NCBI GenBank assembly: GCA_934119935.1
Contig: CAKOSX010000001.1
Span: 268,299-332,298 of the forward strand
Direction of reading: 5' to 3'
DNA: 64,000 nt
Source of the DNA: an uncultured Clostridia bacterium
GTDB taxonomy: Bacteria; Bacillota; Clostridia; TANB77; CAG-508
In this document: piece by piece, positions 377 to 23,891 of the stretch
How positions within the stretch are numbered: the stretch's first letter is position 1
Layout of the letters: each line of letters begins with the position of its first letter
Notes under the pieces: model-generated
Database searches by the model: none
What the model saw: the letters and a program-made list of their open reading frames with translations, nothing else
Told to the model about the DNA's origin: nothing
Translations under genes and position numbers: made by a program

Positions 377-380
377 AATA

Positions 381-425
381 TGTACAATTTTGTACAATTT
401 GGGGACGGAGAAAAAAATGTACAAA
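381..425. repeat. Copy 1 of TGTACA-flanked motif TGTACAATTTGGGGACGGAGAAAAAAATGTACA (with an extra TGTACAATTT unit at 381-390)
   Basis: 27-nt core GTACAATTTGGGGACGGAGAAAAAA is identical to 31639-31665; intergenic, upstream of the 487 gene. Confidence 0.6.
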
Positions 426-486
426 ATATTTTTCTCTGTTTCCTTGCTAATCTTATAAAGCATCGCATTAACGAAAGGAATTTTAA

Positions 487-1380: not shown

Positions 1381-1403
1381 ATTACAATTATGGGGGAATT
1401 ACT

Positions 1404-3491: not shown

Positions 3492-3496
3492 ATTTA

Positions 3497-3530
3497 GTTC
3501 GAAAAAATGACTGAAAATTTTTTTGAACGA
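3497..3530 (+). terminator. Hairpin terminator after the 1404 gene (GTTCGAAAAAA...TTTTTTTGAAC)
   Basis: Inverted repeat with T-run, 6 nt after the stop codon. Confidence 0.4.
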
Positions 3531-3543
3531 TAGTATATTATAA

Positions 3544-3658
3544 AAGAAGAACAATTTGTATTTTTTAGCCTCAACACGTCGCTCTTGGTCGGGGCTCCTA
3601 ACGGACCCCTCAAAAGGCGAGCTTCCGGTTTCATTAAAAAATACAAATTGTTCTTCTT
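3544..3658. other. Structured element: 23-bp perfect inverted repeats (3544-3566 / 3636-3658) enclosing a GC-rich 69-nt core; possible ncRNA, MITE-like element or bidirectional terminator
   Basis: AAGAAGAACAATTTGTATTTTTT and its exact reverse complement flank GCCTCAACACGTCGCTCTTGGTCGGGGCTCCTAACGGACCCCTCAAAAGGCGAGCTTCCGGTT (about 60% GC in a 28% GC context), between convergent genes. Confidence 0.5.
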
Positions 3659-3749
3659 TAGAGTAGTATGTTTTTCAAAAAAGAAGATTTCAAAGTGATG
3701 AAATGAGCATCCAGTTGGGACACGATGAGTCTCTTTTGAGAGAGTCGGT

Positions 3750-5009
3750 TTATCTTAGCAGGTTAAACCACTTATTTAGTACCAGTTTTGTAATAGTTCC
3801 AATGCTTAATTTATCGACATCTCTACTAGAGACTAAATTCACAGTCAAAACTACATTTCCATTTATCGAGAATTCGACTTCGCCAATTTTTTGATTTTCT
3901 AAAACAGGTGCACTAATAGTATCATCCAATTTTATTTCCTGAGTTATATCATTATTGCTGCCATTCGAAGTAAGAATATCTGCATCGTTTTCCAGTATTG
4001 CATCAATTGAAGAAATAGTCCCTTTTTTTATCATTACAGATTTTATTACATCTCCTTTTTTTCCAAAAGAAGTTACAGAATAATTGCTAAAGCCATAGTC
4101 CAAAAGCTTTTGAGCATTAGAAAATCTTATTGCAGGAGTTGGAGCCTTTAAAACAACTGCGATTAAAGAAAGATTATTTCTGGTGGCAGATGCCGATAAA
4201 TTATATAAGGCGATAGAAGTAGAACCTGTTTTTAAACCTGTACAACCATTATAATTTCTAACTAATTTATTCGTATTTACTAAACTAGATTTGCCATCTC
4301 TTAAGGAATCCATCCATATAGTTGTATATTTTGTAATTGAAGGATGATTCATTAATAGTTCTCTAGACATTATCGCAATATCGTAAGCAGAAGTTAAGTG
4401 ACCATCTTCGTCAATTCCATGGCAATTCTTAAATGTGGTATCATTCATTCCTAATTCTTGAGCCTTTTGATTCATCTTTTTTACAAAAGCATCTTGGCTT
4501 CCTTCGAGATAATCAGCCATTGCAACAACGCAATCATTAGCAGAAACAACGCAAATTGCTTTTAACATCTCCTCAACAGTCAATGTTTCTCTAACATCGA
4601 GCCAAATTTGCGAACCACCCATTTTTGCAGCATCTTCTGTACATGGAATCTTATCTGTTAACTGAATTTTACCAGAATCTAAAGCTTCCATAATTAACAA
4701 AAGACTCATAATCTTTGTAACACTTGCAGGTCTTAATTTCTCATGCATATTATAATCGTAAATAATAAGTCCGGAACTTTGTTCTATAAGGCAGGCTGCT
4801 CCACAATCTAAGGCGAGTGGATTATCTGTAACAGTTGCAGAAGATGAGTTTAAGCCTACACTGGTTTCGGCAGTTTCCAACTTTTTAGATTGGTTAGACC
4901 ACACATATGCCGTGGCATCAGAAACAGCAAGTGCAAAAGTATTAAAAAGTATAAAATGACAAAGCAAAACGATGCAAGCAATATATATAAATTTATTTTT
5001 ATGAGACAT
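3750..5009 (-). CDS. dacF: D-alanyl-D-alanine carboxypeptidase (PBP5 family, DacB/DacF-like), with signal peptide
   Basis: SxxK (SVTK), SxN (SAND) and KTG (KTGST) motifs in canonical order; N-terminal signal/TM. Confidence 0.8.
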   Translation of the reverse strand: MSHKNKFIYIACIVLLCHFILFNTFALAVSDATAYVWSNQSKKLETAETSVGLNSSSATVTDNPLALDCGAACLIEQSSGLIIYDYNMHEKLRPASVTKIMSLLLIMEALDSGKIQLTDKIPCTEDAAKMGGSQIWLDVRETLTVEEMLKAICVVSANDCVVAMADYLEGSQDAFVKKMNQKAQELGMNDTTFKNCHGIDEDGHLTSAYDIAIMSRELLMNHPSITKYTTIWMDSLRDGKSSLVNTNKLVRNYNGCTGLKTGSTSIALYNLSASATRNNLSLIAVVLKAPTPAIRFSNAQKLLDYGFSNYSVTSFGKKGDVIKSVMIKKGTISSIDAILENDADILTSNGSNNDITQEIKLDDTISAPVLENQKIGEVEFSINGNVVLTVNLVSSRDVDKLSIGTITKLVLNKWFNLLR

Positions 5010-5069
5010 AAAAAGTCCTCCTTGCTAGAATATTAGTAAATAATATTCGTGTTAGGAGAAAATATTCAT

Positions 5070-5771
5070 TTAAACTAATTTTACAATTTTTACAGTGAGA
5101 GTAACATCATCTGTTTCAAAATAAAGCTTTATATTGTTATCAGTATTATTTTTAAACTTAAAATCAATAGAACCATATGAAACAGCTGCATCTTTACCGT
5201 CTGGAACATATGAAACATTCTTGCCATGTTCATGACGTTCTGTAACTTTTAAATCTGGAACATCAAGTACAGCATTATACAAAGTGCTACTTACTTGGCA
5301 GTTTCCGCCTCCTAAAGATTGAACTTCTTTACCATCTAAAAACATTGTTGCTTCTTTGTAACCTTCTTCTGCTGTTGAAGGACCGGTTATTTCACAAAAA
5401 GAAAAGGTGTCACCAGTATTTACTGTTGTACCATTCAATTTTTCACATGTGATTCTTATGTTGGTTAACCTATTTGAAGTACTGCCAGAAACCTTTGTGG
5501 AATAAGAAGCAATCTCTTCTTCCTTAACGGCAGGTGAAGCCTCAACGTTGGATAGAACATTTTCAATTCTATTATTAACTTTATTTAATTCTTCTGTATT
5601 GCCAAGAACATTGCTATTTTGTGCAAGTCTGGAAGTGTTGGTGGTACTATTGTAATTTTGATTTTCCTTCTGGCCAAATAAATTGTCTTTAAAAACGAAA
5701 ACTAATATGGCAACGATAATAACGAAAATAATTATATATAAGATTGAATAATTTTTACTTTTAGAACTCAT
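5070..5771 (-). CDS. vanW: VanW-family protein (N-terminal TM anchor)
   Basis: GGGNCQVSSTLYNAVLD-type VanW core; start taken at the internal Met (MSSKSK) preceded by AAAGGGA RBS rather than the ORF-track start 5807. Confidence 0.6.
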   Translation of the reverse strand: MSSKSKNYSILYIIIFVIIVAILVFVFKDNLFGQKENQNYNSTTNTSRLAQNSNVLGNTEELNKVNNRIENVLSNVEASPAVKEEEIASYSTKVSGSTSNRLTNIRITCEKLNGTTVNTGDTFSFCEITGPSTAEEGYKEATMFLDGKEVQSLGGGNCQVSSTLYNAVLDVPDLKVTERHEHGKNVSYVPDGKDAAVSYGSIDFKFKNNTDNNIKLYFETDDVTLTVKIVKLV

Positions 5772-5905
5772 AAAAACATCCCTTTCAAAATTTTTACATG
5801 CAAACAATATGTTTTAAAAGTAGTATGCACAAAAATATGAAAAATATGTAATGAGTTTTATAAAATAATAAATGCTAACGATAAATTATTACAAAAAAAT
5901 TAAAT

Positions 5906-5934
5906 TTGCTGCAAAATGTTGTAATATATATAAT
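5906..5934 (+). promoter_or_regulatory. Sigma-A-like promoter (TTGCTG, 17 nt spacer, TATAAT) for the VirB6-like gene pair
   Basis: -35 at 5906-5911, -10 at 5929-5934, about 50 nt upstream of the 5982 start. Confidence 0.35.
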
Positions 5935-5981
5935 GTTATTATAAAATAAAATGAAGTAATAGAAAATAAAAGGAGCAACAA

Positions 5982-8375
5982 ATGAAATTAAAGGAAAGTA
6001 TAAAGAGAAAATTAAGTATTGCCATTGTCGTAGTTATGATGGTAAGCTTTATGTTTGCAAAAACAGTAAGTGCGAAATCTTTTTTACAATCTGCAGGTGG
6101 AAAATTAATGAAACCTGTTCTAAATTTTGTAGTGTTTATAGGCGATTCAATAATAAGTGCATTAGATTCAAATTTGTATTTGAGAGAATGGGGGTATGCA
6201 AAAACGCCAATAACTAGCATATATATAACAGGAGAGGGAAATACTGTATACAGTGGAAGTGAACATTATGATGGTGAAGATGTAATAGAAGTAAATAAAG
6301 AAATTTTAACTTTAGATATGAATATATTTACTGATGATAGTATAGACACTCCAAAAGGAAAGCTATATTCTCCTTATGAAATTTTCTCTAATAAAGTTCC
6401 ACTGTTTGACGTAAATTTCTTTTCTGATAAAAAATATACATATAAAAAAAGTGTAATTACAGGAATAATTCCATCTGAAGAGGGAAATGGAGGAGGAAAA
6501 ATTGTAACTGAAGATGAATTGGTAGAAGTAGAGTCTGCGTCTGGGGTTCTCCAAAAAACTGTTAGTACCTGGTATATTGCGTTAAGAAATATTGCACTAG
6601 TTATATTATTATCAGTATTATTATATATAGGAATTAGAATAGTTATTTCATCTAATGCTGGCCAAAAGGCACAATATAAACAGATGCTACTTGATTGGGT
6701 TATTGCAGTGTGCTTAGTATTTTTTATGCACTATATAATGAGTTTTGCCGTAAATATAACAGAAAATATCTCTAATATAATATTTCAAATGGGAGATAAG
6801 GTAATTAAAGTTCCGATTACAGTATACTCGGGGTTTACTGGAAGACAAACTAAAAATATTGATATACTAACAAATTTTACTGGTTATTTAAGAGTGATTG
6901 CAGGAATTGCAAATTCAAAAGAACAAACGTTAATAACTGTTGAATATGTGATTATGTATTTAATTACTATAGCATATACCGTAATGTTTACTATTACATA
7001 TTTAAAGAGAGTTGTTTATATGGCTTTTTTGACAATTATTGCACCAATAACAGCGGCAACTTACCCTTTAAAAAAGGAAGGAACAACTGCAGGTCAATCT
7101 TTCTCGTTATGGTTAAGAGAATATATGGCAAATTTATTAATACAACCAATACAGTTAATGATATATATGTTAATAATCAGTAATGCTATGAATTTAGTAG
7201 TAGATTATCCTATATATGCTATCGTTTGCTTAGGATTCTTTATACCAGCAGAAAAAATGGTATTTAAGTTATTTGGAATACAAGCACCTCGATATGCTAA
7301 TTCAGAAGGAATTATGAATTCACAACTTAATATGGCTAGAGGTGGAGCAAGGTTAACTGCAAATTTTGCTGGAAACATTATGCATGGAGTTACTAATGGA
7401 TTAGGAAAAATCAGAACTATGACTATAGGAAAATCTGTAAATGGTAAAAATAGTGTGCCAAAGCTAACGGAAAAGAATAATAAAGAAATTTCCAAGAATA
7501 ATAAGGTTGAGAGAAATGATTTTGTTGGTGAGGATACTAATGAAAAGCAAATAATAAATTTAGAAAACGATAATATAGAAAAGGAAGTCGTAGGAAACAA
7601 ATTAAGAAAATTAGTTAGTGAAAAGAATATATCAAATGTTGGAAAGGGAATAGGAAGTTTTTATGGATCATTAACATCAGCAGGATTAGGTGCTATTTCA
7701 GGAATTATGTCTGGAAGTTTGGAAAAGACAATAGAAAATACGGCAAGTGGGGTGATTAGTGGTGCAAAAAAAGGAGGAAGAATAGGAAGTAATATAGGAG
7801 CGAGTGTGTATAACACTGGTGCAATAGTAAAAAATGTTGCAAATAGCTTATCAAAAACAGAAGAAAAAAAGGAGATAAAGACTGATTATGATTCTGATAA
7901 GGTTATGGAGAGTGTTTATCCAGAGTATGCAAAAAACGGAATATCGAAAATGAATGAATTTAAAGCCGCATATGGTTTGGAAAAAGAAGGAATTGATAGA
8001 AAAGAGGCAATAGCGACTTGTAAAATAGCAAAAAAGATTGGAGATATAAGACAAGATAATGAGACAAAACTAAAATGGCATGAGGAACTAAGCAAAACTC
8101 TTTCGGAAACAGACGAAATACAGAAAATAATGAAAGAACAAAGTGAACTAATAGAAAAGAAATATTCAGAGCAGGAAAAAGGTTTAGAAAAACAACATGA
8201 GAATGATGGAAAAAACAGCAAAGAGTTTAATGATTTATCAAAAAAGCTTGAAGACTTAAAGCAGGAGTTAAAGGATAATAAAGATAATGAACTTAAACAA
8301 GTAAAAGATATACCAATTCGTTATGCAGATAAGATTATAGCACAAGTCGAAGAATATTATGAAAATTTAGAATAA
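5982..8375 (+). CDS. VirB6/TrbL-like polytopic membrane protein, paralog A (ConG/TcpH/Tn916-Orf15-like architecture: signal/TM, about 160 aa external segment, about 6 TM, about 370 aa hydrophilic coiled-coil C-terminal tail)
   Basis: AAAGGAG RBS; topology from hydrophobicity; shares with the next ORF the KTVSAKSFLQSAGG N-terminus, TM core (WYIALRNIA..., FMHYIMSF, LWLREYMANL, IPAEKM) and conserved C-terminal tail. Confidence 0.45.
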   Translation: MKLKESIKRKLSIAIVVVMMVSFMFAKTVSAKSFLQSAGGKLMKPVLNFVVFIGDSIISALDSNLYLREWGYAKTPITSIYITGEGNTVYSGSEHYDGEDVIEVNKEILTLDMNIFTDDSIDTPKGKLYSPYEIFSNKVPLFDVNFFSDKKYTYKKSVITGIIPSEEGNGGGKIVTEDELVEVESASGVLQKTVSTWYIALRNIALVILLSVLLYIGIRIVISSNAGQKAQYKQMLLDWVIAVCLVFFMHYIMSFAVNITENISNIIFQMGDKVIKVPITVYSGFTGRQTKNIDILTNFTGYLRVIAGIANSKEQTLITVEYVIMYLITIAYTVMFTITYLKRVVYMAFLTIIAPITAATYPLKKEGTTAGQSFSLWLREYMANLLIQPIQLMIYMLIISNAMNLVVDYPIYAIVCLGFFIPAEKMVFKLFGIQAPRYANSEGIMNSQLNMARGGARLTANFAGNIMHGVTNGLGKIRTMTIGKSVNGKNSVPKLTEKNNKEISKNNKVERNDFVGEDTNEKQIINLENDNIEKEVVGNKLRKLVSEKNISNVGKGIGSFYGSLTSAGLGAISGIMSGSLEKTIENTASGVISGAKKGGRIGSNIGASVYNTGAIVKNVANSLSKTEEKKEIKTDYDSDKVMESVYPEYAKNGISKMNEFKAAYGLEKEGIDRKEAIATCKIAKKIGDIRQDNETKLKWHEELSKTLSETDEIQKIMKEQSELIEKKYSEQEKGLEKQHENDGKNSKEFNDLSKKLEDLKQELKDNKDNELKQVKDIPIRYADKIIAQVEEYYENLE

Positions 8376-8414
8376 TATATATAAGTTAATGATAAAAGCA
8401 AAGGGGAATAACAG

Positions 8415-10964
8415 ATGAAGAGAGCAAAAAAAATGCTATCAAAGCTAGAAAAAATAATTGCAATAATAATAACAATTAATATTATATTTGTGAGTCAGGT
8501 ATCTGCTAAAACGTTTTTGCAAACTGCAGGAGGCGTCTTAATAGAGCCAGTTTTAAATTTTGTTATGTATATAGGTGATACGGTTGAAAACCAATTAAAT
8601 AAAACATTATATACTCAATATGGAAATGAAGACGCTGTTGTTGATTATCCAGTATCAGATGCTATGGAAGACATTGCTGATATAGGAGTGTTTGCTCTTA
8701 CAGTAAAAGAAAAACTATTAAAAATTGATTTGGAGTCATATAGTGATGCGGCGCTAATAGTTTATCTTGGTTTGGACCCAGGGTTATATTTTTCTTTGCA
8801 TTATGGAACAAAAATAGCAGAGGCACTAGGACATGAAACAAAAATTATGTTGCATCCGATAATAAATCTTGCTGATGATGCTTATGAAGAAGCTAAGTCT
8901 TATGTGCTGAAGGTAATAGATATGCTTAGAAAAGTCAGAAAGTCATTGGTAGAAAGACAAGAAGAATTAGCAGAGGGAAGAAAAGTTGTAACTGTTGAAC
9001 CGTTTGTTTTAAAAACAAACGCATTTGACAGTATTGACATTCCGAATGGAGAAATATATTCTCCATACGAAATTTTTTCGAATCAAATACCTTTATTAGA
9101 CGTTAATTTTATATCGCCACATGAGTATAAAAAAACGATTTGGAATATTGATATGCAAAACTTTAAAATTTATAGTGAGGAAGAAGATGTAGAATCTTCT
9201 GCAGCAATTTTGCAAAAAACAATTAGTAGTTGGTATGTAGCTTTGAAAAACATTGCAATTGTCGCTCTAATGTCTGTATTATTATATATTGGAATTAGAG
9301 TTGTGGTATCATCAAGTAATTCAGAAAAGGCTCGCTATAAAGAATTAATTTTTGACTGGTTAACTGCTTTGTGTCTTATATTTTTTATGCATTATATAAT
9401 GAGTTTTATGATTAATATGACAGAAAATATATCTACAATAATTAGTGAAGGTGCCAATACACTTATAAAAGTACCGATACAGGTTAATACAATTTTGGGA
9501 GTAGAAAATGAAAATTTTAATATAATAACAAACTTTTCCGGATATGTTAGATTGATGGCAAGTTTACTTGAAACTAATGGCTCAACTCTGACTGCATTAG
9601 AATATATTATTTTGTATGTTGTTCTTGTTGCATATACAGTAATGTTTACAGTTATATATATGAAAAGGGTTATTTATATGGCTTTTTTAACAGTTATATC
9701 TCCTATCACGGCGGTAACTTATCCGTTTAGAAAGCAAAGAGTAGGTGGGGGACAAGCCTTTGCACTATGGCTTAGGGAATATGTTGCTAATTTAATAATT
9801 CAACCTATACATCTACTTTTATATTCAATAACTATTGGAAGTGTTATGGAATTTGCTGTAGAGCACCCTATATATGCAATTGTGGCTCTGGTTTTCTTTA
9901 TACCAGCTGAAAAAATGATAATGGAATTCTTTGGATTGAAAAATTTGCAATATGCAGACACAGGAAAGACAATGAATTCAGAATCAAGAATATTAAGAAA
10001 AAATGCAATGATTGCTGGAAACGTTGCAGGAAATCTAAGTAGTGGATTAGCAAACGGTCTAAAGAAAATTAGAGTGATGACACTAGGGGAATCTTCAGAA
10101 AACAAGAAGATAAAACAACTAAATACTGAAAAAAATATTGAAAGTGCAACGGAAAATAATCAAAATGGAAAAAATTATTTTAGCCAATTGAGTCAAGAAA
10201 TATTAAACAGAAATTTAACTAATTCGAATAATGAAAAAGAAGCTGAAAATATTCAGAAATCCATATTTGAAAGTATAGAGAGAAGTGTTGAGAAAAGCGT
10301 AGACAGCAAACAAAATGATGATATAGAAACGAAAAGTAATAACAAAGAATATGAAAAGAATATAAGAAATACTATGAATAAAGATGAAGAAAAAGAAATT
10401 TATGATGCTATGTCTACGGAAAAAAATAATCAAAGTAATATAGTACAGGAACAAGATTTTAAGATAGAAACAAATATTAATTTTGATCAAGAAAAAGGAG
10501 AGGCGTATAGAGAATATTCAAAAAATGGAATAACAAATATAAATGAGTTTGAAGCTACATATGCATTAGAAGAAAAGGGAATGAGCAGAGAAGAGGCTAT
10601 TGCAACATATCAAATTGCAAAACAAACTGGTGATGTGAGAAATAATGAAAATATACAACAGGAATGGTTAAAAAAAATAAGCATCAATTTATCGCAGAAC
10701 CAGTATATTAAAGAAATGATGCAGGAACAAAGGAATCTTATAACAGAAAAATATTTGAAAAATGAAAGAGAATTAAAAGAAAAACATAATAAGAAAAATA
10801 ATTCTAATCAGGAGTATAGAAGATTAAAAGAGCAGGTAGAAGATTTAGAAAGAGAGATGAAAAACAACCAAAATAAAGAATTAGATGACGTTGAACAGAT
10901 TCCGATACGATTTGCAAAACAGATATTGAGTAACATTGAAGATTATTATAACAATTTAGAATAA
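8415..10964 (+). CDS. VirB6/TrbL-like polytopic membrane protein, paralog B (849 aa)
   Basis: Collinear with 5982..8375 through signal peptide, TM core and C-terminal coiled-coil tail (…IPIRFAKQIL…YYNNLE); AAGGGGA RBS. Confidence 0.45.
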   Translation: MKRAKKMLSKLEKIIAIIITINIIFVSQVSAKTFLQTAGGVLIEPVLNFVMYIGDTVENQLNKTLYTQYGNEDAVVDYPVSDAMEDIADIGVFALTVKEKLLKIDLESYSDAALIVYLGLDPGLYFSLHYGTKIAEALGHETKIMLHPIINLADDAYEEAKSYVLKVIDMLRKVRKSLVERQEELAEGRKVVTVEPFVLKTNAFDSIDIPNGEIYSPYEIFSNQIPLLDVNFISPHEYKKTIWNIDMQNFKIYSEEEDVESSAAILQKTISSWYVALKNIAIVALMSVLLYIGIRVVVSSSNSEKARYKELIFDWLTALCLIFFMHYIMSFMINMTENISTIISEGANTLIKVPIQVNTILGVENENFNIITNFSGYVRLMASLLETNGSTLTALEYIILYVVLVAYTVMFTVIYMKRVIYMAFLTVISPITAVTYPFRKQRVGGGQAFALWLREYVANLIIQPIHLLLYSITIGSVMEFAVEHPIYAIVALVFFIPAEKMIMEFFGLKNLQYADTGKTMNSESRILRKNAMIAGNVAGNLSSGLANGLKKIRVMTLGESSENKKIKQLNTEKNIESATENNQNGKNYFSQLSQEILNRNLTNSNNEKEAENIQKSIFESIERSVEKSVDSKQNDDIETKSNNKEYEKNIRNTMNKDEEKEIYDAMSTEKNNQSNIVQEQDFKIETNINFDQEKGEAYREYSKNGITNINEFEATYALEEKGMSREEAIATYQIAKQTGDVRNNENIQQEWLKKISINLSQNQYIKEMMQEQRNLITEKYLKNERELKEKHNKKNNSNQEYRRLKEQVEDLEREMKNNQNKELDDVEQIPIRFAKQILSNIEDYYNNLE

Positions 10965-10978
10965 AAGAGGAAAGAATT

Positions 10979-11866
10979 ATGTACAAAAATGATACAAATA
11001 AGTATAAAGTTTGGATGACTATTATTGTATTAATAGTAGTGGTATTTATTGTAATCAATTCAAAAATGAAAAATAATAAGCAATCGAATCTAGATAATAT
11101 TTTGGAAAATGCAGAAAAAGTAGAGAACATAGAACATACAGATAACGAAAGTAATGAGAATAATCTAAATCAGACAAAGAATAATGAAATTGATTTTAAC
11201 CAAAATGTAATAGAACGATTTATAGAATATTGTAATAATAATGAGATTAAAAAGGCATATAATTTATTGTCACAAGATTGTAAAAATGAATTATTCCCTT
11301 CAGTAGATGATTTTTATGATAAGTATTATAAGAAAAAATTTAGTACTAAAAAGAATTATACTATCATGTTGTGGAAAAACATGACCTATATGATTAATCT
11401 AAAAGAATGTAGTATTGAAACAGGAGTGTTATCAAGTGAAGTTATTAGAGATTACATAACATATACAAGAAATGGATTAAATATTGGTGGTTATATAGGT
11501 AGGGAAAAAGCAAATAGAACTATCAATGTGGAGAATATAAAAATCGATATTCTCTATAGAAATACATATATTGATTATGAAGAATATGCATTTTCTATAA
11601 AAAACAATAGTAAAGCAAGTATGATTTTTGATAGCAAAGAAAAAGCGAATACTCTCTATATAAAAGATCAGAAAGGGCTAAAGTATTATGCGTATATGTA
11701 TGAGCTGAACAAAAGTGAACTTATTTATGATCAAAATGAAGAGAGAAAAATAATTATTAAATACGAAAAAATGTATGATACAAATATATACACAAAGAAT
11801 ATTATCTTTGATGATGTAACAATAGGAGAAGAAAAAACTCAAATAATGATAGCATTAGGAGAATAG
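10979..11866 (+). CDS. Single-pass membrane-anchored hypothetical protein (N-terminal TM, Asn-rich linker, extracytoplasmic domain)
   Basis: ORF with GAGGAAAG RBS; N-terminal TM WMTIIVLIVVVFIVI. Confidence 0.5.
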   Translation: MYKNDTNKYKVWMTIIVLIVVVFIVINSKMKNNKQSNLDNILENAEKVENIEHTDNESNENNLNQTKNNEIDFNQNVIERFIEYCNNNEIKKAYNLLSQDCKNELFPSVDDFYDKYYKKKFSTKKNYTIMLWKNMTYMINLKECSIETGVLSSEVIRDYITYTRNGLNIGGYIGREKANRTINVENIKIDILYRNTYIDYEEYAFSIKNNSKASMIFDSKEKANTLYIKDQKGLKYYAYMYELNKSELIYDQNEERKIIIKYEKMYDTNIYTKNIIFDDVTIGEEKTQIMIALGE

Positions 11867-11867
11867 T

Positions 11868-14226
11868 ATGGAAGAAGAGGGAAAAGAAAAAAAGAACAGG
11901 AAAATAAAAAATGCAGGGAAAAAAATATTAAAAAATACCATTAAAACAATAATAAAGTTCATAAATTTCATAATTAATTTAATTATTAACTTTACTGTGC
12001 CAACATTAATAATAATTGCTGTTCTTATAGTTATTTCATCTATAAAATATGTAATAGATACTCTGGATGGTTCTCGAAATGAAAGTGAGCCACGGGAATG
12101 TAGGACATGTTGTCTCTGAAGAGGTCAGTTCTAAAGTTGTTGTTTCATCTATTGTTAAAACTGATAACGGTTATGGATATGATGTGGACTTAGATGAAAA
12201 AGTAGAGGCTATAAAAAAGGATCTGAAAGAAAACGATGCTGATGATACATTAGATAGATATATAAAAGAAAAAAATCAAAATAAGTATTTAAAGAAGTTT
12301 TTGCAGGCTGAAATAAAAACAAAGTTTCCAGACTTAAGAAACAAAGAGAAAATTGGACAAGCGTTAAAAGAAAATGAACTACAGGGATCAATACAAATAC
12401 ATAGAAAAAATCAAAATGGAAAAGATGAAATTTTAACATATATAGACGGTAAAACATTTAGAGAGTATATAAATTCTAATGATAAAAGAGCTATAGAACA
12501 TTTTTCTCTTAATAGTGATGGTAATTTACTAATTTCTAGCTGGACGAAGAAAACTCTAAAAGATGGAAGTGAAGAGTATTTCCTAAGTGAAGAAATTATC
12601 GATTATAGAGCTCTAACAAAAAGGTATGACATGCCATTTGATTTTTTGTGGGCACTGACAGTAATGGGAAATGATGAGGATTTGTCTTATGAGGTGGCAA
12701 AATTAACGGATGATACAAAGATAGTATTAACAATATATGAAAATGTTGTAAAAACTACAACAGTAAGAAAAACAGAAAATCAGGAAACAGGGAAAACAGA
12801 AGTAACGACCGAAAAATATGAAGAATGTGAAAATCACTTATATATGTCAAGTGCTGTAACATGGGTTGCTGATGTTGAAAATGAATATGTTAACAAGGTT
12901 ATAGATCCTATTGTGAGCCAATATTCGTCAGGTATTAGTGAAGTCACAAAAACAGTTGAAAGAAACGAGTATGTGAAAGGAACTGAAAAAATAACAGAAA
13001 AAATTGACAAAAATTCAGAAAAAGAAAATTTCATTACATTGCTTCTAAAGCATGAAAATGCAACTAATAAGATTTTAACAGCAAGAGATTGGTTCTATGA
13101 AATGCTTGAATCAAGCAATGATACAGTAGATATGATTGATACTATAGATTACTTGCTAGATATAGTAGAGGGCAAAACTACTACTGGAAATATTATTGAA
13201 GAGGGCTCAAAACAAGATATAACGCAGAATCAATTGGTAGATGATATAATAGTTGATACCACAAAAGGAAATAACAATTTAGTTCTAAAAAAAGAACAAT
13301 TAGAAGAAATAATAAGAAAGACATATAAAGATACAGATGACAAGCAGAAAAACTTACTAGGAGCATTAAATTCTTTTTATAAGATTCAATCGGAAAGACA
13401 TGTTAATGCTGTATTTGCAATGGCTGTAGCAATACAGGAATCAAATGCGGGGACAAGTTGGAATTACATAGACAAAAGTACTCATAACTGGATGAGTGTT
13501 ATGGGGCAAAGTGGATATACAGATAAAAATGGCAATACGTGGAAAAAATATGAGAGCTTTTCCGAAGCAACAGAGGACTTTGGAAGATTAATAGAGACAA
13601 ATAATAGCTATTTTGCTGGAGGAAACATAACAGTAAAGCAAATATCTAAGGCATACTGCAGTCCTTCAGAGCCATGGAGTAACCACGTAATATTAAAGAT
13701 GAAAGACTTATATTCATCTATTGGAATTCACTTAGATGATTATATAGATAAGAAGGAAGAAGAAAATTCTAGTGAAGATGCTAATATAACAGCTACAACA
13801 TTTTTAGGAATAGCAAAGCAATGCCATGACTATATTAAAGACAATAATTTTTATTATGTACAAGGAAACAAAATCCCATATCCAAATGGAACAAGTTACA
13901 TTGATTGTAGTGCATATGTTACATGGGTTTTGTATGAATATGGATATACAGAATTTGCGGGGCACCAAAAAGACACTGCCTGGTTTATGGGAAGTGGCCC
14001 ATCAAAAATGGGGTGGACAATATTAAAACCATCTGAGGCAAAGGCTGGAGATCTTCTTGTAAAATCTGGACATATAGAAATATTTGCAGGCGATGGAGTT
14101 GGAACTTATTCAGCAGGTTCTACTAATTCCATAAGAAAAGACATAAGTTACAAAGGATGCAGTTTAAGCAAAATAATTTCAGATGGCGGATTTACTCGAG
14201 CTATTAGAGTAAAAGCACCAAATTAA
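11868..14226 (+). CDS. Membrane-anchored bifunctional peptidoglycan hydrolase (FlgJ-type glucosaminidase plus C-terminal NlpC/P60), CwlT/TcpG-like; read as one gene interrupted by a +1 frameshift (extra C at 12093)
   Basis: ORFs 11868..12119 (TM anchor) and 12067..14226 join in frame if the C at 12093 (CCACGGG) is deleted; glucosaminidase motif VNAVFAMAVAIQESNAGTSWNY; NlpC/P60 Cys/His (DCSAYVTWV…GHIEIF). Confidence 0.6.
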
Positions 14227-14242
14227 GAATGAAGGAAATGCG

Positions 14243-15490
14243 ATGAGTAAAAAGGTATTAATTATAGGACTGATTTTAATATTAATAATTAGTGGAACAG
14301 TCACTATTGTTTTAACGAGAAAGACAGATAATGAGAAAAATATGGATGTTGAGGAGCAAGTAGGAGACGTTGAAACAAAGTTTAAAAGAGAAAAAGTAAG
14401 CAATTCTACAGTATTTTATACTGTAGAAGATTGCATAAATTTTTACATAGATTTTGTCAAAGCAGAGGAGAAAGATAAGATTTTTGAACTGCTGGATGAA
14501 AAATATATTAATGAAAATAATATAAATCAAGAGAATGTACTAAAATATGTAGAAAAGCCGAAATATTCTTTTATAGCATTAGACATGTATGAAAGTGAGT
14601 TAAACAATGTGTGCAACTATATTGTGGAAGGTGTTGCGGATGATGGAATTTACAACACAAAAATGTATTTTAGAGTGGGATTAGATACTAATAATTTTTC
14701 ATTTAACATAATGCCTTTATCTGCAAAGAAGTATAACAACATAGATGAAATAGAAGAAAGTGAAAGTATAGCAGAAATTCCAAACAACGATGCCAATAGT
14801 TATCAGTATAATAGAATAAAAGAAAATGAAATAATAGAAAAAATTTTAAAATATTATTGCGACCTTACTGTAAATAATGTAAAAAAAGCATATGACATGT
14901 TAGAACAAGAATATAGGGAAAAACGATTTGATAAATATAGCAAATTTCAAGATTACATAAAAAAGAGAAGTGAAAATCTAAAACAAGCACGTGTTGCAGG
15001 ATATTCAGTAAAGGAAGAAGAAAATAAAAAAATATATACTGTAGTAGACCAAGACGGAAGGGTATATATATTTAAGCAAAAATCTATAATGAATTTCACT
15101 GTTCAGATGGATGACTATACATTAGAAACAGATGAATATAAAGAAAAATATATGAATTCTACTGTTGTAGATAAAATTAAACTAAATGTAAACAAATTTA
15201 TGAAGATGATTTCTAATTATGATTATGAGAGCGCATATGGGCTATTGAATGAAGCATATAAAAAGAATAATTTTAAAACTGAAAAATCATATGAAAAATT
15301 TATAGAACAGCATTTTTATAATTCAAACTCATATAGCATAGAAAAGATTGAGACAGATGCACAAGATTATATTATTACAATTACTGTTGCAGAAGATGCG
15401 AGTGCATCAGCAGCGAAAAAAACAAATAAGATTGCAATGAGACTAGGGGAGAATACAGAATTTGTAATGGCGGTAATATTAAATGAGTAA
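14243..15490 (+). CDS. Single-pass membrane-anchored hypothetical protein (415 aa)
   Basis: N-terminal TM LIIGLILILIISGTVTIVL then soluble domain; GAAGGAAATG RBS. Confidence 0.5.
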   Translation: MSKKVLIIGLILILIISGTVTIVLTRKTDNEKNMDVEEQVGDVETKFKREKVSNSTVFYTVEDCINFYIDFVKAEEKDKIFELLDEKYINENNINQENVLKYVEKPKYSFIALDMYESELNNVCNYIVEGVADDGIYNTKMYFRVGLDTNNFSFNIMPLSAKKYNNIDEIEESESIAEIPNNDANSYQYNRIKENEIIEKILKYYCDLTVNNVKKAYDMLEQEYREKRFDKYSKFQDYIKKRSENLKQARVAGYSVKEEENKKIYTVVDQDGRVYIFKQKSIMNFTVQMDDYTLETDEYKEKYMNSTVVDKIKLNVNKFMKMISNYDYESAYGLLNEAYKKNNFKTEKSYEKFIEQHFYNSNSYSIEKIETDAQDYIITITVAEDASASAAKKTNKIAMRLGENTEFVMAVILNE

Positions 15491-15555
15491 AATAGGTAAA
15501 AATTTTTTATTTATTATTAATAAACTTTATAAACATTATTATATGAGGAGGAAAA

Positions 15556-15945
15556 ATGATGAACATAAAAGAAAATATAAAGAAAATTATAACAGGAATC
15601 ACAGCTTTTTTTACAACAATTACAACAAAAGTGTTTGCCAAAACAAATACTGATATCCAAAAGGTATTAAATGTTCTAGATGATAGTTATAATATGAGAG
15701 GAGTTTCATTATATGGAATTGAACGACCATGGCAATATACAGTAAGCAATGGATTGTTGAAAATTTGTGAATTTATTGCTATTCCACTTATTTTAATAAT
15801 TGGAGCCATAATTTTTATACAAAGAAAGAAGAATATAAAATCTAAAAATTTAAAAAAAGCTATAATAATTATAAGTATTGTTTATGTTGTTGCTTTTATA
15901 GCTGCACTTATTATTCCAATAATTTATAACCAGATTTATTTCTAG
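15556..15945 (+). CDS. Small secreted/membrane protein: Sec signal peptide plus two C-terminal hydrophobic helices separated by a basic loop (VirB2/TrbC-pilin-like topology)
   Basis: AGGAGG RBS; paralog of 17855..18211 on the opposite strand. Confidence 0.55.
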   Translation: MMNIKENIKKIITGITAFFTTITTKVFAKTNTDIQKVLNVLDDSYNMRGVSLYGIERPWQYTVSNGLLKICEFIAIPLILIIGAIIFIQRKKNIKSKNLKKAIIIISIVYVVAFIAALIIPIIYNQIYF

Positions 15946-16082
15946 ACGCATTGCTTAAATAAGTTTAGTTATTAAAATATGAAGATTAGCTAGTGTAAAT
16001 AAATATTGTAGATGAAATTTGTAAAAACATTATTAGTTTAGTAAAACATATGAAATATTACAAGTGAATATATGGAGGAAAA

Positions 16083-17171
16083 ATGTTAAAGGAAATTTAT
16101 AAATTAGGGGAATTAACAATAAACAATCGCATTAAAGATGAAGAAAGAATTTTACATCCATTAAGAGATTTATTCTGGGAATGTACATTATCATGCAATG
16201 CAAAGTGCAAACACTGTGGAAGTAGTGCAGAAAAAAGAAGATATGACGGAGAATTAACAACAGATGAAATAAAATCAGCTTTTAAACAAATAGCTGACAA
16301 TATGGATGCTAGTAAAATTTTAATTAATGTTACAGGTGGAGAACCATTAGTAAGACAAGATTTGTGTGAGGTGATGGAATATGCTTCAAAAGAATTGGGT
16401 TTTCATTGGGGAATGACAACGAATGGAATTCTACTTAACGAAAAGAATATAGAAAAATTAAAAAATGCAAATATGGAAAGTATTTCGGTAAGCATAGATG
16501 GATTGCAAGAAACTCATGATGAGTTTAGAGGAGTACCAGGCTCATATAATTTAATAATGAATAATATTAAGAAACTTAAAGAAGCGGGTTTTGTAAAACA
16601 TTTGCAGGTTACAACAGTTTTTCATAAGAAAAATATTAACCAACTGCAGGAATTATATGATATTATGAAAAATTTAGGATTAGATTCTTGGAGACTAGTT
16701 TCAATGGATCCAATTGGAAGAGCAAATGAAAATTCTGAACTTTTACTCGATGGAAAAGAATTAAAAGAATTGCTGGATTTTATAAAATCAAAAAATAAGA
16801 AGCATTGTTTGCAATTATCTTATGGTTGCCCTGGATTTTTAGGATTAGATTACGAGAAGGAAGTAAGAAAACAGTATTTTTATTGCAGGACTGGAATAAG
16901 TGTTGCGAGCATACTTTATAACGGAGATTTGTTTGTATGTCCTAATGTCCCAAGAGTTTCTAGATTAATACAAGGAAATATAAGAATAGACAATTTTAAA
17001 AAAGTTTGGGATAATAAATACACGGAATTTAGAGATAAAAATAGAATGGCATGCGAAGAATGCAATAAGTGTGAAAATTGGGATTATTGTCTTGGAGGAG
17101 CATTACATACTTGGAACTTTGAAGAAAAGTGTCAAAATAAGTGTCCATACAAAATGATGGAAAATTTATAA
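16083..17171 (+). CDS. Radical SAM enzyme with C-terminal SPASM/twitch Cys-rich domain (peptide or protein-modifying maturase type)
   Basis: CNAKCKHC = CxxxCxxC radical SAM cluster motif; C-terminal cysteines (CPGF…CRTG…CPNVP…CEECNKCENWDYC…CQNKCPY); GGAGG RBS. Confidence 0.75.
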   Translation: MLKEIYKLGELTINNRIKDEERILHPLRDLFWECTLSCNAKCKHCGSSAEKRRYDGELTTDEIKSAFKQIADNMDASKILINVTGGEPLVRQDLCEVMEYASKELGFHWGMTTNGILLNEKNIEKLKNANMESISVSIDGLQETHDEFRGVPGSYNLIMNNIKKLKEAGFVKHLQVTTVFHKKNINQLQELYDIMKNLGLDSWRLVSMDPIGRANENSELLLDGKELKELLDFIKSKNKKHCLQLSYGCPGFLGLDYEKEVRKQYFYCRTGISVASILYNGDLFVCPNVPRVSRLIQGNIRIDNFKKVWDNKYTEFRDKNRMACEECNKCENWDYCLGGALHTWNFEEKCQNKCPYKMMENL

Positions 17172-17204
17172 AAACTTTTTTGAAAAATTAAATAGGAGAA
17201 AGAG

Positions 17205-17231
17205 GCATAGTATAAAAGCACTATGCTTTTT
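17205..17231 (+). terminator. Rho-independent terminator after the radical SAM gene
   Basis: GCATAGT-ataaaag-ACTATGC hairpin followed by TTTTT. Confidence 0.6.
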
Positions 17232-17282
17232 CTAGTAGACAAAAAAATAAAGGAGATGCTTCCATTTCCTTTAATTTTTTTA

Positions 17283-17492
17283 TTATTGAATTCCATATTT
17301 TTCTCTGAATTTTGCTGCTCTTCCACCTGTTGTTTCTCTTTTTAAGTTACCTGTCCAGAATGGATGGCATTTTGAGCAAACATCAACTTTGATATCTTTC
17401 TTTGTTGATCCAGCTTTTATAACATTACCACATGCACATGTGATTGTTGTTTCTGCATAATTTGGATGTATTCCTTCTTTCATTGTATTCAC
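17283..17492 (-). CDS. rpmE: 50S ribosomal protein L31
   Basis: MKEGIHPNY…CxC…CSKCHPFWTG signature of zinc-ribbon L31. Confidence 0.9.
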   Translation of the reverse strand: MNTMKEGIHPNYAETTITCACGNVIKAGSTKKDIKVDVCSKCHPFWTGNLKRETTGGRAAKFREKYGIQ

Positions 17493-17577
17493 CTCTCCTT
17501 TTTTTAATAAAAACTGCTAAATACTATAATAACATAAATGAATTATATTTTCAAGTATTAAATTATTATTTTTAAAT

Positions 17578-17739
17578 TTATATTGTATTTTCTGTATCTT
17601 GCTTGTGTTCTTCAATATATTCAATAGAACTTTGAACTTCTTCTTTTAAAGAATATCTTCTTACTATTTTTGATACAACATTAAATAAACAAGCAATAAT
17701 AAGAATTGCCAACAATAATTTTTTCCATATTTTTGCCAT
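17578..17739 (-). CDS. Unannotated small ORF, 53 aa single-TM peptide (MAKIWKKLLLAILIIACLFNVVSKIVRRYSLKEEVQSSIEYIEEHKQDTENTI)
   Basis: GGAGAAAAAATT-ATG RBS; below the 60-aa cutoff of the ORF track; hydrophobic N-terminus and charged C-terminus. Confidence 0.4.
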   Translation of the reverse strand: MAKIWKKLLLAILIIACLFNVVSKIVRRYSLKEEVQSSIEYIEEHKQDTENTI

Positions 17740-17854
17740 AATTTTTTCTCCTACATCAAAAACTACAATAATATTATACTATATTTTTAACTTTTGTCAA
17801 CTGGCAAACTAGCTTAATTACTTAAAAGCTAAGAGTGTTAAAGAGTTGAAAATA

Positions 17855-18211
17855 TTATATTGTAGGATTAAACAAAAAAATTGCAATTCTAATTATGCTG
17901 GCAATAAGAAATGTAATAATAGCTATAAGAAATACTATTTTAAAACTCTTAATACTTTTATTTTTATGTTTTTTCACAAGAATTATAATTCCTAATATTA
18001 AAATTATAGGTACTATAAATATTTGCCACAAACGAAGAATATTTAAAACAATTGACTTATAGTTTGGTGTTTGTGATGTACGTGGTGGACCATATAATTC
18101 TTGAAGAATAGGCATGGAATCAGTAGCAACAGCTAATACTTTAGTTGATACTGTTGCAAAAAAAGCTCCAATTCCAGCTGTGATTTTTTTGAACATTTCT
18201 TTTATTTTCAT
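17855..18211 (-). CDS. Small secreted/membrane protein, inverted paralog of 15556..15945 (signal peptide plus two hydrophobic helices)
   Basis: Shared signal peptide (KKITAGIGAFFATVSTKVLA vs KKIITGITAFFTTITTKVFA) and shared C-terminal helix-basic loop-helix layout. Confidence 0.55.
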   Translation of the reverse strand: MKIKEMFKKITAGIGAFFATVSTKVLAVATDSMPILQELYGPPRTSQTPNYKSIVLNILRLWQIFIVPIILILGIIILVKKHKNKSIKSFKIVFLIAIITFLIASIIRIAIFLFNPTI

Positions 18212-18348
18212 AAGTTCCTCCTAAAATCTAAGTGTTAAAATCATTATATATTCACCGAGATTTAATTGTCAATATCCTTGCTATTTTTTCTTTTTTATAG
18301 TAAAATAAATTGAGAAAAAAGTTGAAAAATGGAGAATATTAGAAGGTT

Positions 18349-22509: not shown

Positions 22510-22512
22510 CCA

Positions 22513-23769: not shown

Positions 23770-23891
23770 AATAAAATGAAAAATAGTAAGAAAATTTCTT
23801 GCTATTTTTTTCATTCTAGTGTAAAATGTTATATGTATAATATTTATATGAAAAATAAGAGAAAATTAAATAAAGAGAGAGGGATAATTAT

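What the first reader, a model, noticed from the sequence alone, without database searches (positions are those of the whole stretch)
5906..18211. Chromosomal T4SS/conjugation-like module without ATPases, relaxase or integrase
Two tandem paralogous about 800-aa proteins have the VirB6/TrbL (ConG/TcpH/Tn916-Orf15) architecture. They are followed by single-pass membrane proteins, a TM-anchored bifunctional peptidoglycan hydrolase (glucosaminidase plus NlpC/P60; CwlT/TcpG-like, the VirB1 analogue), another membrane protein, and small Sec-signal two-helix proteins with VirB2/TrbC-pilin-like topology. The VirB6-hydrolase order matches Gram-positive conjugative elements. However no VirB4/ConE, VirD4/ConQ, relaxase, replication or integrase gene lies in or near the block, which is embedded between dacF/vanW and rpmE-miaB-mutS. 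It could be a decayed ICE remnant or a domesticated ATPase-less envelope-spanning apparatus.
Basis: partly seen in the sequence, partly recalled or inferred. Interest (0 to 1): 0.75.

Follow-up and report, generated by a model that had tools for sequence, protein, structure and literature searches.

The report
Orphan hypervariable type-IV secretion channel cassette
A gut Clostridia chromosome carries only the membrane and cell-wall-spanning half of a type IV secretion machine, with no motor ATPase nearby; the block is kept in every strain sampled but swapped between very different versions, so it is a maintained surface module rather than a dead mobile element.

The parts
5982..8375 (+). A: VirB6-like polytopic membrane protein (797 aa). 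It has a signal/anchor helix, a beta-rich ectodomain (about aa 66-185), a TM core (aa 186-440) whose first hairpin is pilin-like, a disordered linker, and a helical cytoplasmic C-domain (aa 636-797).
8415..10964 (+). B: a second VirB6-like paralog (849 aa), present only in this allele (window and L012).
   Evidence: 42% identical to A. Retains 62 of 73 family-conserved residues. Absent from alleles L007, L013 and L022, which carry one such gene.
6167..12001 (.). Core of the hypervariable recombination cassette: A from about aa 62 onward, B, C and the N-terminus of D.
   Evidence: Window vs L007: 96% nucleotide identity for 1-6167, about 68% or unalignable for 6167-12001, then 92-96%. The left junction falls at 6152-6179 in every allele compared (L001, L007, L009, L013, L014, L022); the right junction varies.
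10979..11866 (+). C: single-pass membrane protein (295 aa) with an NTF2/VirB8-like ectodomain.
   Evidence: One TM segment. hhalign of the C family against the F family gives probability 93.7%, E 1.8e-7, aligning C aa 72-145 with F's third NTF2 domain. Homologs follow the VirB6-like gene in all complete loci.
11868..12119 (+). D: an 83-aa TM fragment, the detached N-terminal anchor of the hydrolase.
   Evidence: One TM segment. In L001, L007, L013 and L022 it is in frame with the hydrolase, giving single ORFs of 774-787 aa.
12088..12094 (+). Site of the 1-nt insertion (frameshift) that separates D from E.
   Evidence: Alignment A2 of window, L012, L001 and L007: the extra base is shared by the window and the independent assembly L012.
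12067..14226 (+). E: body of the cell-wall hydrolase (VirB1 analog). It has a conserved N-domain with the FPDLR motif, a GH73 glucosaminidase domain (aa 436-520; AIQESNAG at nt 13429-13452) and an NlpC/P60-type domain (IDCSAYV at nt 13900-13920; SGHIEIF at nt 14065-14085).
   Evidence: PF01832 E 2.6e-7; NlpC_P60 E 0.011; CHAP E 0.055. Motifs located. The N-domain is shared with hydrolases of complete loci that carry different catalytic domains. Window vs L012: 10 synonymous against 1 nonsynonymous difference.
14243..15490 (+). F: TM-anchored protein with three tandem NTF2-like (VirB8-like) domains (415 aa).
15556..15945 (+). G: small protein with a signal peptide and two TM helices. Not assigned to the T4SS cassette; it belongs with the rSAM/SPASM gene.
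   Evidence: The family has only 23 representatives in 1.84e9 proteins. No consistent pilin hit. G-like genes flank an H-like rSAM gene in L020/L021 and L024. No match in any of the complete T4SS loci held (tblastn).
16083..17171 (+). H: radical SAM/SPASM enzyme. A neighbour, not a T4SS part.
   Evidence: PF04055 and PF13186. TIGR04133-like, 325 bits against a cut-off of 425. A terminator-like hairpin lies at 17248-17273.
17855..18211 (-). I: paralog of G on the opposite strand, with a full-consensus promoter at 18272-18243.
   Evidence: 35% identical to G. Promoter matches 12 of 12 positions. Varies between strains from 42 to 99%.

Best explanation
Window 5982-15490 is one tightly packed, same-strand gene block (gaps of 1-39 nt). 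It encodes the envelope-spanning half of a monoderm (MPF-FATA-related) type IV secretion apparatus. The parts are two VirB6-like channel/platform proteins (A, B), two membrane-anchored NTF2/VirB8-like scaffold proteins (C, F) and a bifunctional peptidoglycan hydrolase (D/E, the VirB1 analog).

Shown. Each of these families is homologous to a gene found in the same order directly downstream of pilins, VirB3(PrgI), a TraC-like protein and VirB4. Those complete loci lie among chromosomal housekeeping genes in related uncultured gut Clostridia, with no relaxase or T4CP in the flanks held. In this lineage only the A-F half is present at this site, in every strain sampled. The genes keep family-conserved residues. 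The segment is a recombination mosaic with deeply diverged alleles between near-identical flanks.

Inferred. The hydrolase opens the wall locally. C and F scaffold across membrane and wall. A and B form the membrane platform, with ectodomains exposed at the surface, and those exposed parts are under diversifying selection or are exchanged by recombination. Because no known T4SS works without VirB4, the most likely mode of action is as a satellite or alternative channel set that docks on a VirB4 motor (with VirB3, a TraC-like protein and pilins) encoded elsewhere in the genome. The split and duplicated vir loci of Rickettsiales are a precedent, as are the extra cassettes seen in L010 and L017.

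G, H and I are a separate unit of an rSAM/SPASM enzyme plus small membrane proteins.
For: Identity of the parts:
- A family: TrbL_4 in 6/49 members and PF18895 in 37/49. The L010 homolog carries TrbL_3.
- F: three NTF2 domains that hit TraM, TcpC and OrfG.
- C: shares that domain.
- E: GH73 plus a Cys/His peptidase motif pair.

Context:
- L002, L003, L004, L006, L010, L015/16 and L018 all show pilins-PrgI-TraC-like-VirB4-A(x1-4)-C-hydrolase-F. Several lie next to gidA/gidB/parA/parB or dnaB. No relaxase or T4CP was seen in the flanks held.
- L010 has an extra orphan A-like gene beside a full system. L017 has three tandem hydrolase-F cassettes, of which the second also carries C and the third both A and C.

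Maintenance:
- Loci of this lineage (L001, L007-9, L012-14, L022/23) all keep the block between vanW and rSAM-rpmE-miaB.
- A and B retain 63 and 62 of 73 positions that are at least 90% conserved in the other members.
- dN/dS between window and L012: E 0.02, F 0.21, C 0.21, A 0.40, B 0.49.

Hypervariability:
- Flanks are 92-98% identical, against A 45%, C 37-40%, E 71-80% and F 67-95%.
- The 25 closest database hits plus A and B fall into at least 8 allele clusters, none more than 62% identical to another.

Precedent: split vir loci with tandem, strain-variable virB6 in Anaplasma (PMC3556328). Chromosomal relaxase-less MPF-FATA-type T4SS near the origin in Patescibacteria (PMC12102498).
Against: - No VirB4, VirB3, TraC-like protein or true pilin was found in the 64-kb window or within 10 kb of the block in any locus of this lineage.
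- I could not search the rest of the genome. The remote-motor step is therefore pure inference.
- The hydrolase has lost its membrane anchor by frameshift in this strain, and A is frameshifted in MAG L001. Both are compatible with ongoing decay.
- dN/dS of 0.4-0.5 for A and B rests on few substitutions and could reflect relaxed constraint.
- A and B themselves do not reach any Pfam or NCBIfam cut-off.
- The Foldseek E-value for VirB6 is not significant on its own.
- The dN/dS argument for E could be blurred by recombination with intact alleles.
Confidence: 0.5

Rival explanations
1. Truly ATPase-less, domesticated envelope apparatus. The VirB6-like, VirB8-like and hydrolase set has been exapted for a VirB4-independent job at the cell surface, such as local wall remodelling, a passive wall-spanning conduit, or adhesion/recognition. 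There is no T4SS motor anywhere in the genome.
For: - No motor gene in 64 kb, nor in the 10-kb flanks of any locus of this lineage.
- The block is fixed, conserved and recombining like a surface-antigen locus.
- The neighbours are wall enzymes, dacF and vanW. A VanW-domain gene also abuts the closest foreign cassette, in L017.
Against: - Every other lineage examined in which the upstream flank of the cassette is held has VirB4 directly upstream. That VirB4 is under very strong conservation, at least 88% identity across 120 clusters. This argues that the family's function depends on VirB4.
- A keeps the cytoplasmic C-terminal helical domain (pLDDT above 90). In VirB6-like proteins this kind of domain is the expected docking side (my inference).
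- Extra cassettes coexist with a full system in L010 and L017.
Confidence: 0.22
2. Slowly decaying remnant of a chromosomal T4SS or ICE whose motor half was deleted. The genes are no longer functional as a system.
For: - Frameshift separating the hydrolase from its anchor in two independent assemblies.
- Frameshift in A of MAG L001.
- dN/dS of 0.4-0.5 in A and B.
- Absence of all motor genes nearby.
Against: - Long intact ORFs in at least five allele types.
- About 85% retention of family-conserved residues.
- E shows 10 synonymous against 1 nonsynonymous change after the shared frameshift.
- The block is present at the same site in all sampled strains, although alleles are only 45% identical. 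That degree of divergence is far older than a decaying pseudogene block would survive.
- No att sites, integrase or compositional break: GC is 24-32% through the block against 27-35% elsewhere in the part profiled.
Confidence: 0.13
3. Ordinary ICE or conjugative plasmid segment, or an unrelated membrane-protein family (FtsX/YhgE/ComEC-like) mistaken for VirB6.
For: A distant relative (23% identity) sits after a DUF87/VirB4 gene on Clostridium botulinum plasmids. That shows the lineage also occurs on replicons.
Against: - No relaxase, T4CP, integrase, replication gene or att repeat in the window.
- Housekeeping flanks are identical across strains.
- No relative in 2.9 million viral contigs.
- No PADLOC hit.
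- Structural and contextual evidence points to VirB6, not to other transporter families.
Confidence: 0.03

Closest known systems
Gram-positive conjugative T4SS (MPF-FATA): pCW3 TcpH/TcpG/TcpC, ICEBs1 ConG/CwlT, pIP501 TraG/TraM/TraH, pCF10 PrgH/PrgK/PrgL/PrgD
   Same: - A large VirB6-like polytopic protein with a cytoplasmic tail.
- A two-domain wall hydrolase.
- TM-anchored NTF2/VirB8-like proteins, with two per system as in pIP501 and pCF10 (cited in PMC12102498).
- The same gene order.
- F hits the TraM, TcpC and OrfG structures.
   Different: - No VirB4, T4CP, relaxase or oriT context at this locus.
- Chromosomal, fixed and non-mobile.
- A and B do not reach the cut-offs of the TrbL or PrgH-type models.
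- The VirB6-like core begins with a pilin-like (PF18895) hairpin.
- The block is allelically hypervariable.
Chromosomal relaxase-less T4SS of Patescibacteria (Quinonero-Coronel et al. 2025, PMC12102498)
   Same: The complete loci found here in other Clostridia (L002, L015, L018 and others) have the same make-up: VirB2-like pilins (PF18895/PF04956), PrgI/VirB3, a VirB4-N-like protein (TrsD/TraC-like), VirB4, VirB6, and hydrolases downstream of virB4. They lie next to origin-region genes, with no relaxase in the flanks held.
   Different: The organisms are spore-former-like Clostridia, not Patescibacteria. The window's own block lacks the whole motor half and does not sit next to the origin-marker genes (parA/parB, gidA/gidB, dnaB).
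Rickettsiales vir homolog (rvh) T4SS, e.g. Anaplasma phagocytophilum (Al-Khedery et al. 2012, PMC3556328)
   Same: - vir genes split over separate chromosomal loci.
- Tandem virB6 paralogs with large extensions.
- virB6 and virB2 are the most strain-variable components and are thought to be surface exposed.
   Different: Diderm MPF-T system with no sequence relatedness. There the motor genes are known to exist in the same genome; here that is untested.
ICEBs1 ConG-YddJ exclusion specificity (bioRxiv 10.1101/2021.01.25.428195)
   Same: A VirB6-type protein (ConG) is the target of the element's exclusion protein YddJ, and the pairing is specific (paper title). That variable regions of ConG set this specificity is from my own knowledge; I did not read the paper. 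This gives a precedent for selection to diversify VirB6 ectodomains.
   Different: No exclusion lipoprotein gene was identified here, and the system is not a conjugative element. This is only an analogy for why alleles might diverge.

Membership tests
VirB6/TrbL family (T4SS polytopic membrane subunit) | Polytopic core of at least 5 TM helices, with hydrophilic extensions | tested here: met
   AF2 helices at 186-222, 226-271, 316-359, 369-408 and 410-430 with pLDDT above 90. Hydropathy peaks agree.
VirB6/TrbL family (T4SS polytopic membrane subunit) | Match to curated TrbL/VirB6 profiles above threshold | tested here: not met
   A and B hit no TrbL model. They give only sub-threshold PF18895 hits and sub-threshold NCBIfam conjugation TM-protein hits. 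At family level, TrbL_4 appears in 6/49 members (best E 4e-5) and TrbL_3 (weak) in the L010 homolog.
VirB6/TrbL family (T4SS polytopic membrane subunit) | Fold similarity to a solved VirB6 | tested here: met
VirB6/TrbL family (T4SS polytopic membrane subunit) | Encoded next to virB4 in a T4SS gene cluster | tested here: inconclusive
   Not so in the window. It holds for homologs in L002, L003, L004, L005, L006, L010, L015/16 and L018, and for a distant relative on C. botulinum plasmids.
Functional T4SS / conjugative element (MPF-FATA) | VirB4 ATPase | tested here: not met
   tblastn with four VirB4 sequences and four TraC-like sequences finds nothing in the 64 kb at E<=1, apart from one 22-residue chance match at E 0.22. 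No DUF87 or AAA_10 domain in the scanned ORFs. The rest of the genome was not searchable.
Functional T4SS / conjugative element (MPF-FATA) | Coupling protein, relaxase, integrase/att sites | tested here: not met
   Pfam scans of 50 window ORFs show none. No flanking direct repeats beyond AT-rich chance matches. No tRNA at the borders.
VirB8-like (NTF2-fold T4SS scaffold: TcpC/TraM/PrgL/OrfG) | N-terminal TM anchor plus NTF2-like ectodomain(s), encoded in a T4SS cluster | tested here: met
VirB1-type T4SS wall hydrolase (CwlT/TcpG/PrgK-like) | Muramidase/glucosaminidase domain plus NlpC/P60-CHAP domain with catalytic residues, exported or membrane anchored | tested here: inconclusive
   PF01832 is above its cut-off. 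NlpC_P60 and CHAP are sub-threshold, but the Cys and His motifs are present. The anchor is detached by a frameshift in this strain, so export of E is uncertain. No sequence match to any PDB chain.
VirB2/TrbC pilin (PF04956, PF18895) for G and I | Profile match, and location in a T4SS cluster | tested here: not met
   0 of 24 family members listed as hitting PF18895, and 2 of 24 hit TrbC at E 0.03. hhalign against true pilins of the complete loci gives probability 68%, covering only the signal peptide and first TM helix. No G/I match in any of the complete T4SS loci held. G-like genes flank rSAM/SPASM genes in L020/21 and L024.

The most novel reading that the evidence does not exclude
The species has no VirB4 at all. 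The VirB6-like, VirB8-like and hydrolase cassette would then be an ATPase-independent, T4SS-derived envelope machine, kept by selection and diversified by allele exchange for a surface role such as recognition, adhesion or a wall conduit. That would be the first example of the T4SS channel half working without its motor.
Probability: 0.2. Interest if true: 0.8.

Novelty: new variant of a known kind. Interest (0 to 1): 0.55.

Why it matters
Three reasons.

1. It points to a large, unnamed T4SS lineage on the chromosomes of uncultured gut Clostridia. The lineage has no relaxase in view, often sits near the origin-region genes, and has a remarkably conserved VirB4. It mirrors the non-conjugative T4SS recently described as important in Patescibacteria, and it may be related to the monoderm source of that system.

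2. It shows that the channel/scaffold/hydrolase half behaves as a separable unit that can be duplicated and exchanged. VirB6-like proteins are the fastest-evolving part. This makes them candidates for determinants of partner or phage specificity in the gut.

3. If no motor exists in this genome, it would be a new use of T4SS parts.

The deciding test is simple and cheap: search one complete genome of this species for VirB4.

Tried and rejected
- att repeats: searched for attL/attR around 5.8 and 18.3 kb. Only short AT-rich chance repeats turned up.
- tRNA integration site: none near the block.
- Known defence systems: no PADLOC hit for A-F. H hits pVip models only through generic radical-SAM similarity.
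- Phage origin: PHROGs gave nothing for A-F. No relative of A in IMG/VR.
- Sequence search of the PDB with the A-family profile and with E: nothing meaningful.
- G and I as VirB2-like pilins: rejected as members.
- Locating a VirB4 in the same genome: I compared the 'longest contig' sizes of VirB4 clusters with those of contigs carrying the module. No match, but the test is uninformative, because only the top 120 of more than 6,900 VirB4 hits were listed, all at least 88% identical to the query.
- Phase variation at the D/E frameshift: the site lies in no homopolymer or repeat, so I do not propose a programmed shift.
- Promoter scan: the number of promoter-like sites is no higher than in shuffled sequence, so I assign no promoter to the A-F block.


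Full report
**What is there.** The + strand between vanW (5070-5807, -) and rpmE carries closely spaced ORFs:

| Name | Coordinates | Length |
|---|---|---|
| A | 5982-8375 | 797 aa |
| B | 8415-10964 | 849 aa |
| C | 10979-11866 | 295 aa |
| D | 11868-12119 | 83 aa |
| E | 12067-14226 | 719 aa |
| F | 14243-15490 | 415 aa |
| G | 15556-15945 | 129 aa |
| H | 16083-17171 | 362 aa |

A terminator-like hairpin follows at 17248-17273. On the - strand lie rpmE, a 53-aa TM ORF (17578-17739) and I (17855-18211, 118 aa). miaB and mutS follow on the + strand. GC content (24-32%) and GC skew show no break at the borders of the block.

A and B are 42% identical paralogs. G and I are 35% identical. Curated libraries say little about A-F:
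- A and B give only sub-threshold PF18895 (T4SS_pilin) hits at aa 189-254. A also gives sub-threshold NCBIfam hits to mycoplasma-ICE and pLS20 conjugation TM proteins.
- E has a Glucosaminidase domain above its cut-off, plus weak NlpC/P60 and CHAP hits. The motifs AIQESNAG, IDCSAYV and SGHIEIF are intact.
- H is a radical SAM/SPASM enzyme.

**Identity of the large paralogs.** A has more than 2,000 unnamed relatives in metagenomes. An AlphaFold2 model built on 91 of them has a confident core (pLDDT above 90 for aa 130-440 and 640-797). It shows a signal/anchor helix, a long helix, a beta-rich ectodomain, a multi-helix TM core, a disordered linker and a helical C-terminal domain.

Structure searches agree on VirB6:
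- Foldseek against the PDB ranks TrwI/VirB6 of the R388 T4SS first. The E-value is weak (0.73), with TM-score 0.43 on the target.

Within the family, 37 of 49 members hit PF18895 and 6 hit TrbL_4. A homolog in L010 carries TrbL_3. The PF18895 signal is real homology: free-standing VirB2-like pilins of related loci align to A aa 185-263, the first TM hairpin of the core (tblastn 1e-6).

The N-terminal domain of E, with its FPDLR motif, is shared with hydrolases of related loci. Those hydrolases carry other catalytic domains, including Amidase_3, Phage_lysozyme2, M23, CHAP and C39.

**Context in other genomes is the strongest evidence.** In L002, L003, L004, L006, L010, L015/L016 and L018 the homologs of A (1-4 tandem copies), C, the hydrolase and F lie in that order directly after a VirB4-like ATPase (DUF87/AAA_10/P-loop_TraG). 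In L005, a short contig, only VirB4 and the A homolog are held. Where the upstream flank is held, the ATPase is preceded by a TraC-like 400-aa protein, a PrgI/VirB3-like protein and 2-4 TrbC/PF18895 pilins.

These loci sit among chromosomal housekeeping genes:
- gidA-gidB-parA-parB in L002 and L003;
- parB in L015;
- dnaB in L018;
- holB and a spore photoproduct lyase gene in L010.

No relaxase or coupling protein appears in the flanks held, up to 10 kb on each side. This closely parallels the relaxase-less, origin-proximal, MPF-FATA-derived T4SS described in Patescibacteria (PMC12102498). A distant version also occurs on C. botulinum plasmids, with DUF87, an A-like gene and a C39 peptidase in the same order.

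The VirB4 of these loci is extremely conserved. The top 120 clusters (at 90% identity) are all at least 88% identical to the L002 protein. The adjacent VirB6-like proteins are only 35-47% identical.

**What is missing here.** tblastn with four VirB4 and four TraC-like sequences, plus the pilin and VirB3-like proteins of those loci, finds no motor, VirB3-like or free-standing pilin gene in the 64-kb window. The only pilin matches fall on the pilin-like hairpins inside A and B. A reciprocal search shows that only A, B, C, E and F, plus vanW and dacF, have counterparts in the complete loci. Pfam scans of 50 ORFs across the window show housekeeping genes only, such as tsaD, tig, clpPX, queA, tgt and glycogen genes. 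There are no att-like repeats, and the only tRNA is at 33433.

**Not a recent remnant.** Loci L001, L007-L009, L012-L014 and L022/L023 come from the same lineage: where held, miaB is 98-100% identical, vanW 88-98% and H 93-99%. All have the same arrangement, vanW | A(-B)-C-hydrolase-F | G-H-rpmE-53aa-I-miaB, and none has a VirB4.

Selection signals point the same way:
- A and B retain 63 and 62 of the 73 positions that are at least 90% conserved among 43 other family members.
- Between the window and the near-identical independent assembly L012, E shows 10 synonymous against 1 nonsynonymous change. dN/dS is 0.21 for C, 0.21 for F, 0.40 for A and 0.49 for B.

**Hypervariability.** Against L007, nucleotide identity is 96% up to position 6167, which is aa 62 of A. 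It then falls to about 68% or becomes unalignable until 12001, and returns to 92-96%. The left junction falls at 6152-6179 in every allele compared. The right junction differs between alleles, and further variable islands cover the E N-domain, F (67% in L022), G (about 40-48% in L013/L014) and I (42-52% in L001, L014 and L022).

Even the TM core of A is only 54-59% identical between alleles of this lineage. That is similar to A against B (55%) and to A against VirB4-linked homologs of other species (46-48%). The 25 closest database hits plus A and B fall into at least 8 clusters, none more than 62% identical to another. Copy number also varies: there are two VirB6-like genes in the window and L012, and one in the other alleles. 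This is the pattern of a surface-exposed locus that diversifies by allele exchange.

(i) In this strain the hydrolase is split by a 1-nt insertion near 12090. The result is an 83-aa TM anchor (D) and a 719-aa body without a TM segment (E). The insertion is shared with the independent Logan assembly L012 and absent from L001 and L007. It lies in no homopolymer. The strong synonymous bias in E suggests the body is still used, though recombination could blur this signal.

(ii) G and I are not supported as pilins. No family member is listed as hitting PF18895, and similarity to true pilins is marginal. They give no match in any of the complete T4SS loci held. In L020/L021 and L024, G-like genes flank an H-like rSAM/SPASM gene (74-78% identical to H) with no T4SS genes on those short contigs. 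G, H and I are therefore a separate unit.

**Mechanism.**

Shown:
- The block encodes the channel (VirB6-like x2), the scaffold (VirB8-like x2) and the wall hydrolase (VirB1-like) of a T4SS lineage.
- It is separable from the motor half. L010 has an orphan A-like gene beside a full system. L017 has three tandem hydrolase-F cassettes, the second with C and the third with A and C, ending next to a VanW-domain gene.

Inferred:
- The set assembles an envelope-spanning structure whose exposed parts are under diversifying selection.
- It most likely uses a VirB4/VirB3/TraC-like/pilin motor encoded elsewhere in the genome. The split rvh loci of Rickettsiales are a precedent: there, tandem virB6 paralogs are the most strain-variable T4SS genes (PMC3556328).

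I therefore put about 0.5 on this model, about 0.2 on a truly ATPase-less exapted apparatus, about 0.13 on slow decay, and very little on an ordinary ICE or a misassigned family.

**Verdict.** The thing is a new variant of a known kind: a stand-alone, hypervariable T4SS envelope cassette. It belongs to a wider, apparently undescribed, relaxase-less chromosomal T4SS lineage of gut Clostridia. Interest is moderate to high. It hinges on one simple unresolved question: is there a VirB4 elsewhere in this genome?

Noticed in passing
window 1404-3491 (+): A 695-aa protein with no Pfam hit and no TM segment, upstream of dacF, is itself hypervariable between strains of this lineage. It is 95% identical in L007, 84% in L009 and 57% in L001 and L022, while dacF and vanW next to it stay at 88-98%.
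   Followed up: partly
window 15556-18272; L020 1195-3322; L024: G, H and I form a separate unit: a radical SAM/SPASM enzyme flanked by 1-3 small proteins that each have a signal peptide and two TM helices. The small-protein family has only 23 representatives in 1.84 billion proteins and carries a conserved YG motif and a Lys-rich loop. They may be substrates or partners of the enzyme. Full-consensus sigma-70 promoters (12 of 12) lie upstream of I (18272-18243) and of the 53-aa TM ORF (17800-17773).
   Followed up: partly
L002, L003, L004, L006, L010, L015, L018 (VirB4 genes): The VirB4 of the complete chromosomal loci is extraordinarily conserved: the top 120 clusters (at 90% identity) are all at least 88% identical to the L002 protein. 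The loci sit next to gidA/gidB/parA/parB or dnaB, with no relaxase or T4CP in the flanks held. This looks like a Clostridia counterpart of the Patescibacteria T4SS.
   Followed up: partly
window 6537-6770 (A aa 185-263); 9144-9431 in B: The first TM hairpin of the VirB6-like core is homologous to the free-standing VirB2-like pilins of the complete loci (tblastn 1e-6; PF18895 in 37 of 49 family members). This suggests a pilin-derived or pilin-mimicking element built into VirB6.
   Followed up: partly
L017 1-17765: Three tandem cassettes, [hydrolase-F], [C-hydrolase-F] and [A-C-hydrolase-F], end next to a VanW/G5 gene. The hydrolases carry different catalytic domains (M23, Phage_lysozyme2, M15_4, Phage_lysozyme). 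The envelope half appears to duplicate as a unit.
   Followed up: no
window 19894-27039: mutS is not followed by mutL. Instead come a G5/SH3/Glucosaminidase protein (22513-23769), a 133-aa ORF and a 913-aa ORF with no Pfam hits. The same order is conserved in L022.
   Followed up: no
L001 4461-6804; L002 13488-17043; L022 15482-18113; L023 14078-15554: Frameshifts split the A gene (L001), the hydrolase (L002), mutS (L022) and miaB (L023) in metagenome-derived contigs. They may be assembly errors, so single frameshifts in these loci should not be read as decay. The window's D/E frameshift is the exception, because an independent assembly confirms it.
   Followed up: partly
L025 (C. botulinum plasmid NZ_KT897276.1, 11082-17713): Plasmids of 134-144 kb, typed 'non-mobilizable', carry DUF87(VirB4), an 853-aa A-like protein and a C39 peptidase in the same order. 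This is a possibly overlooked transfer or secretion apparatus.
   Followed up: no
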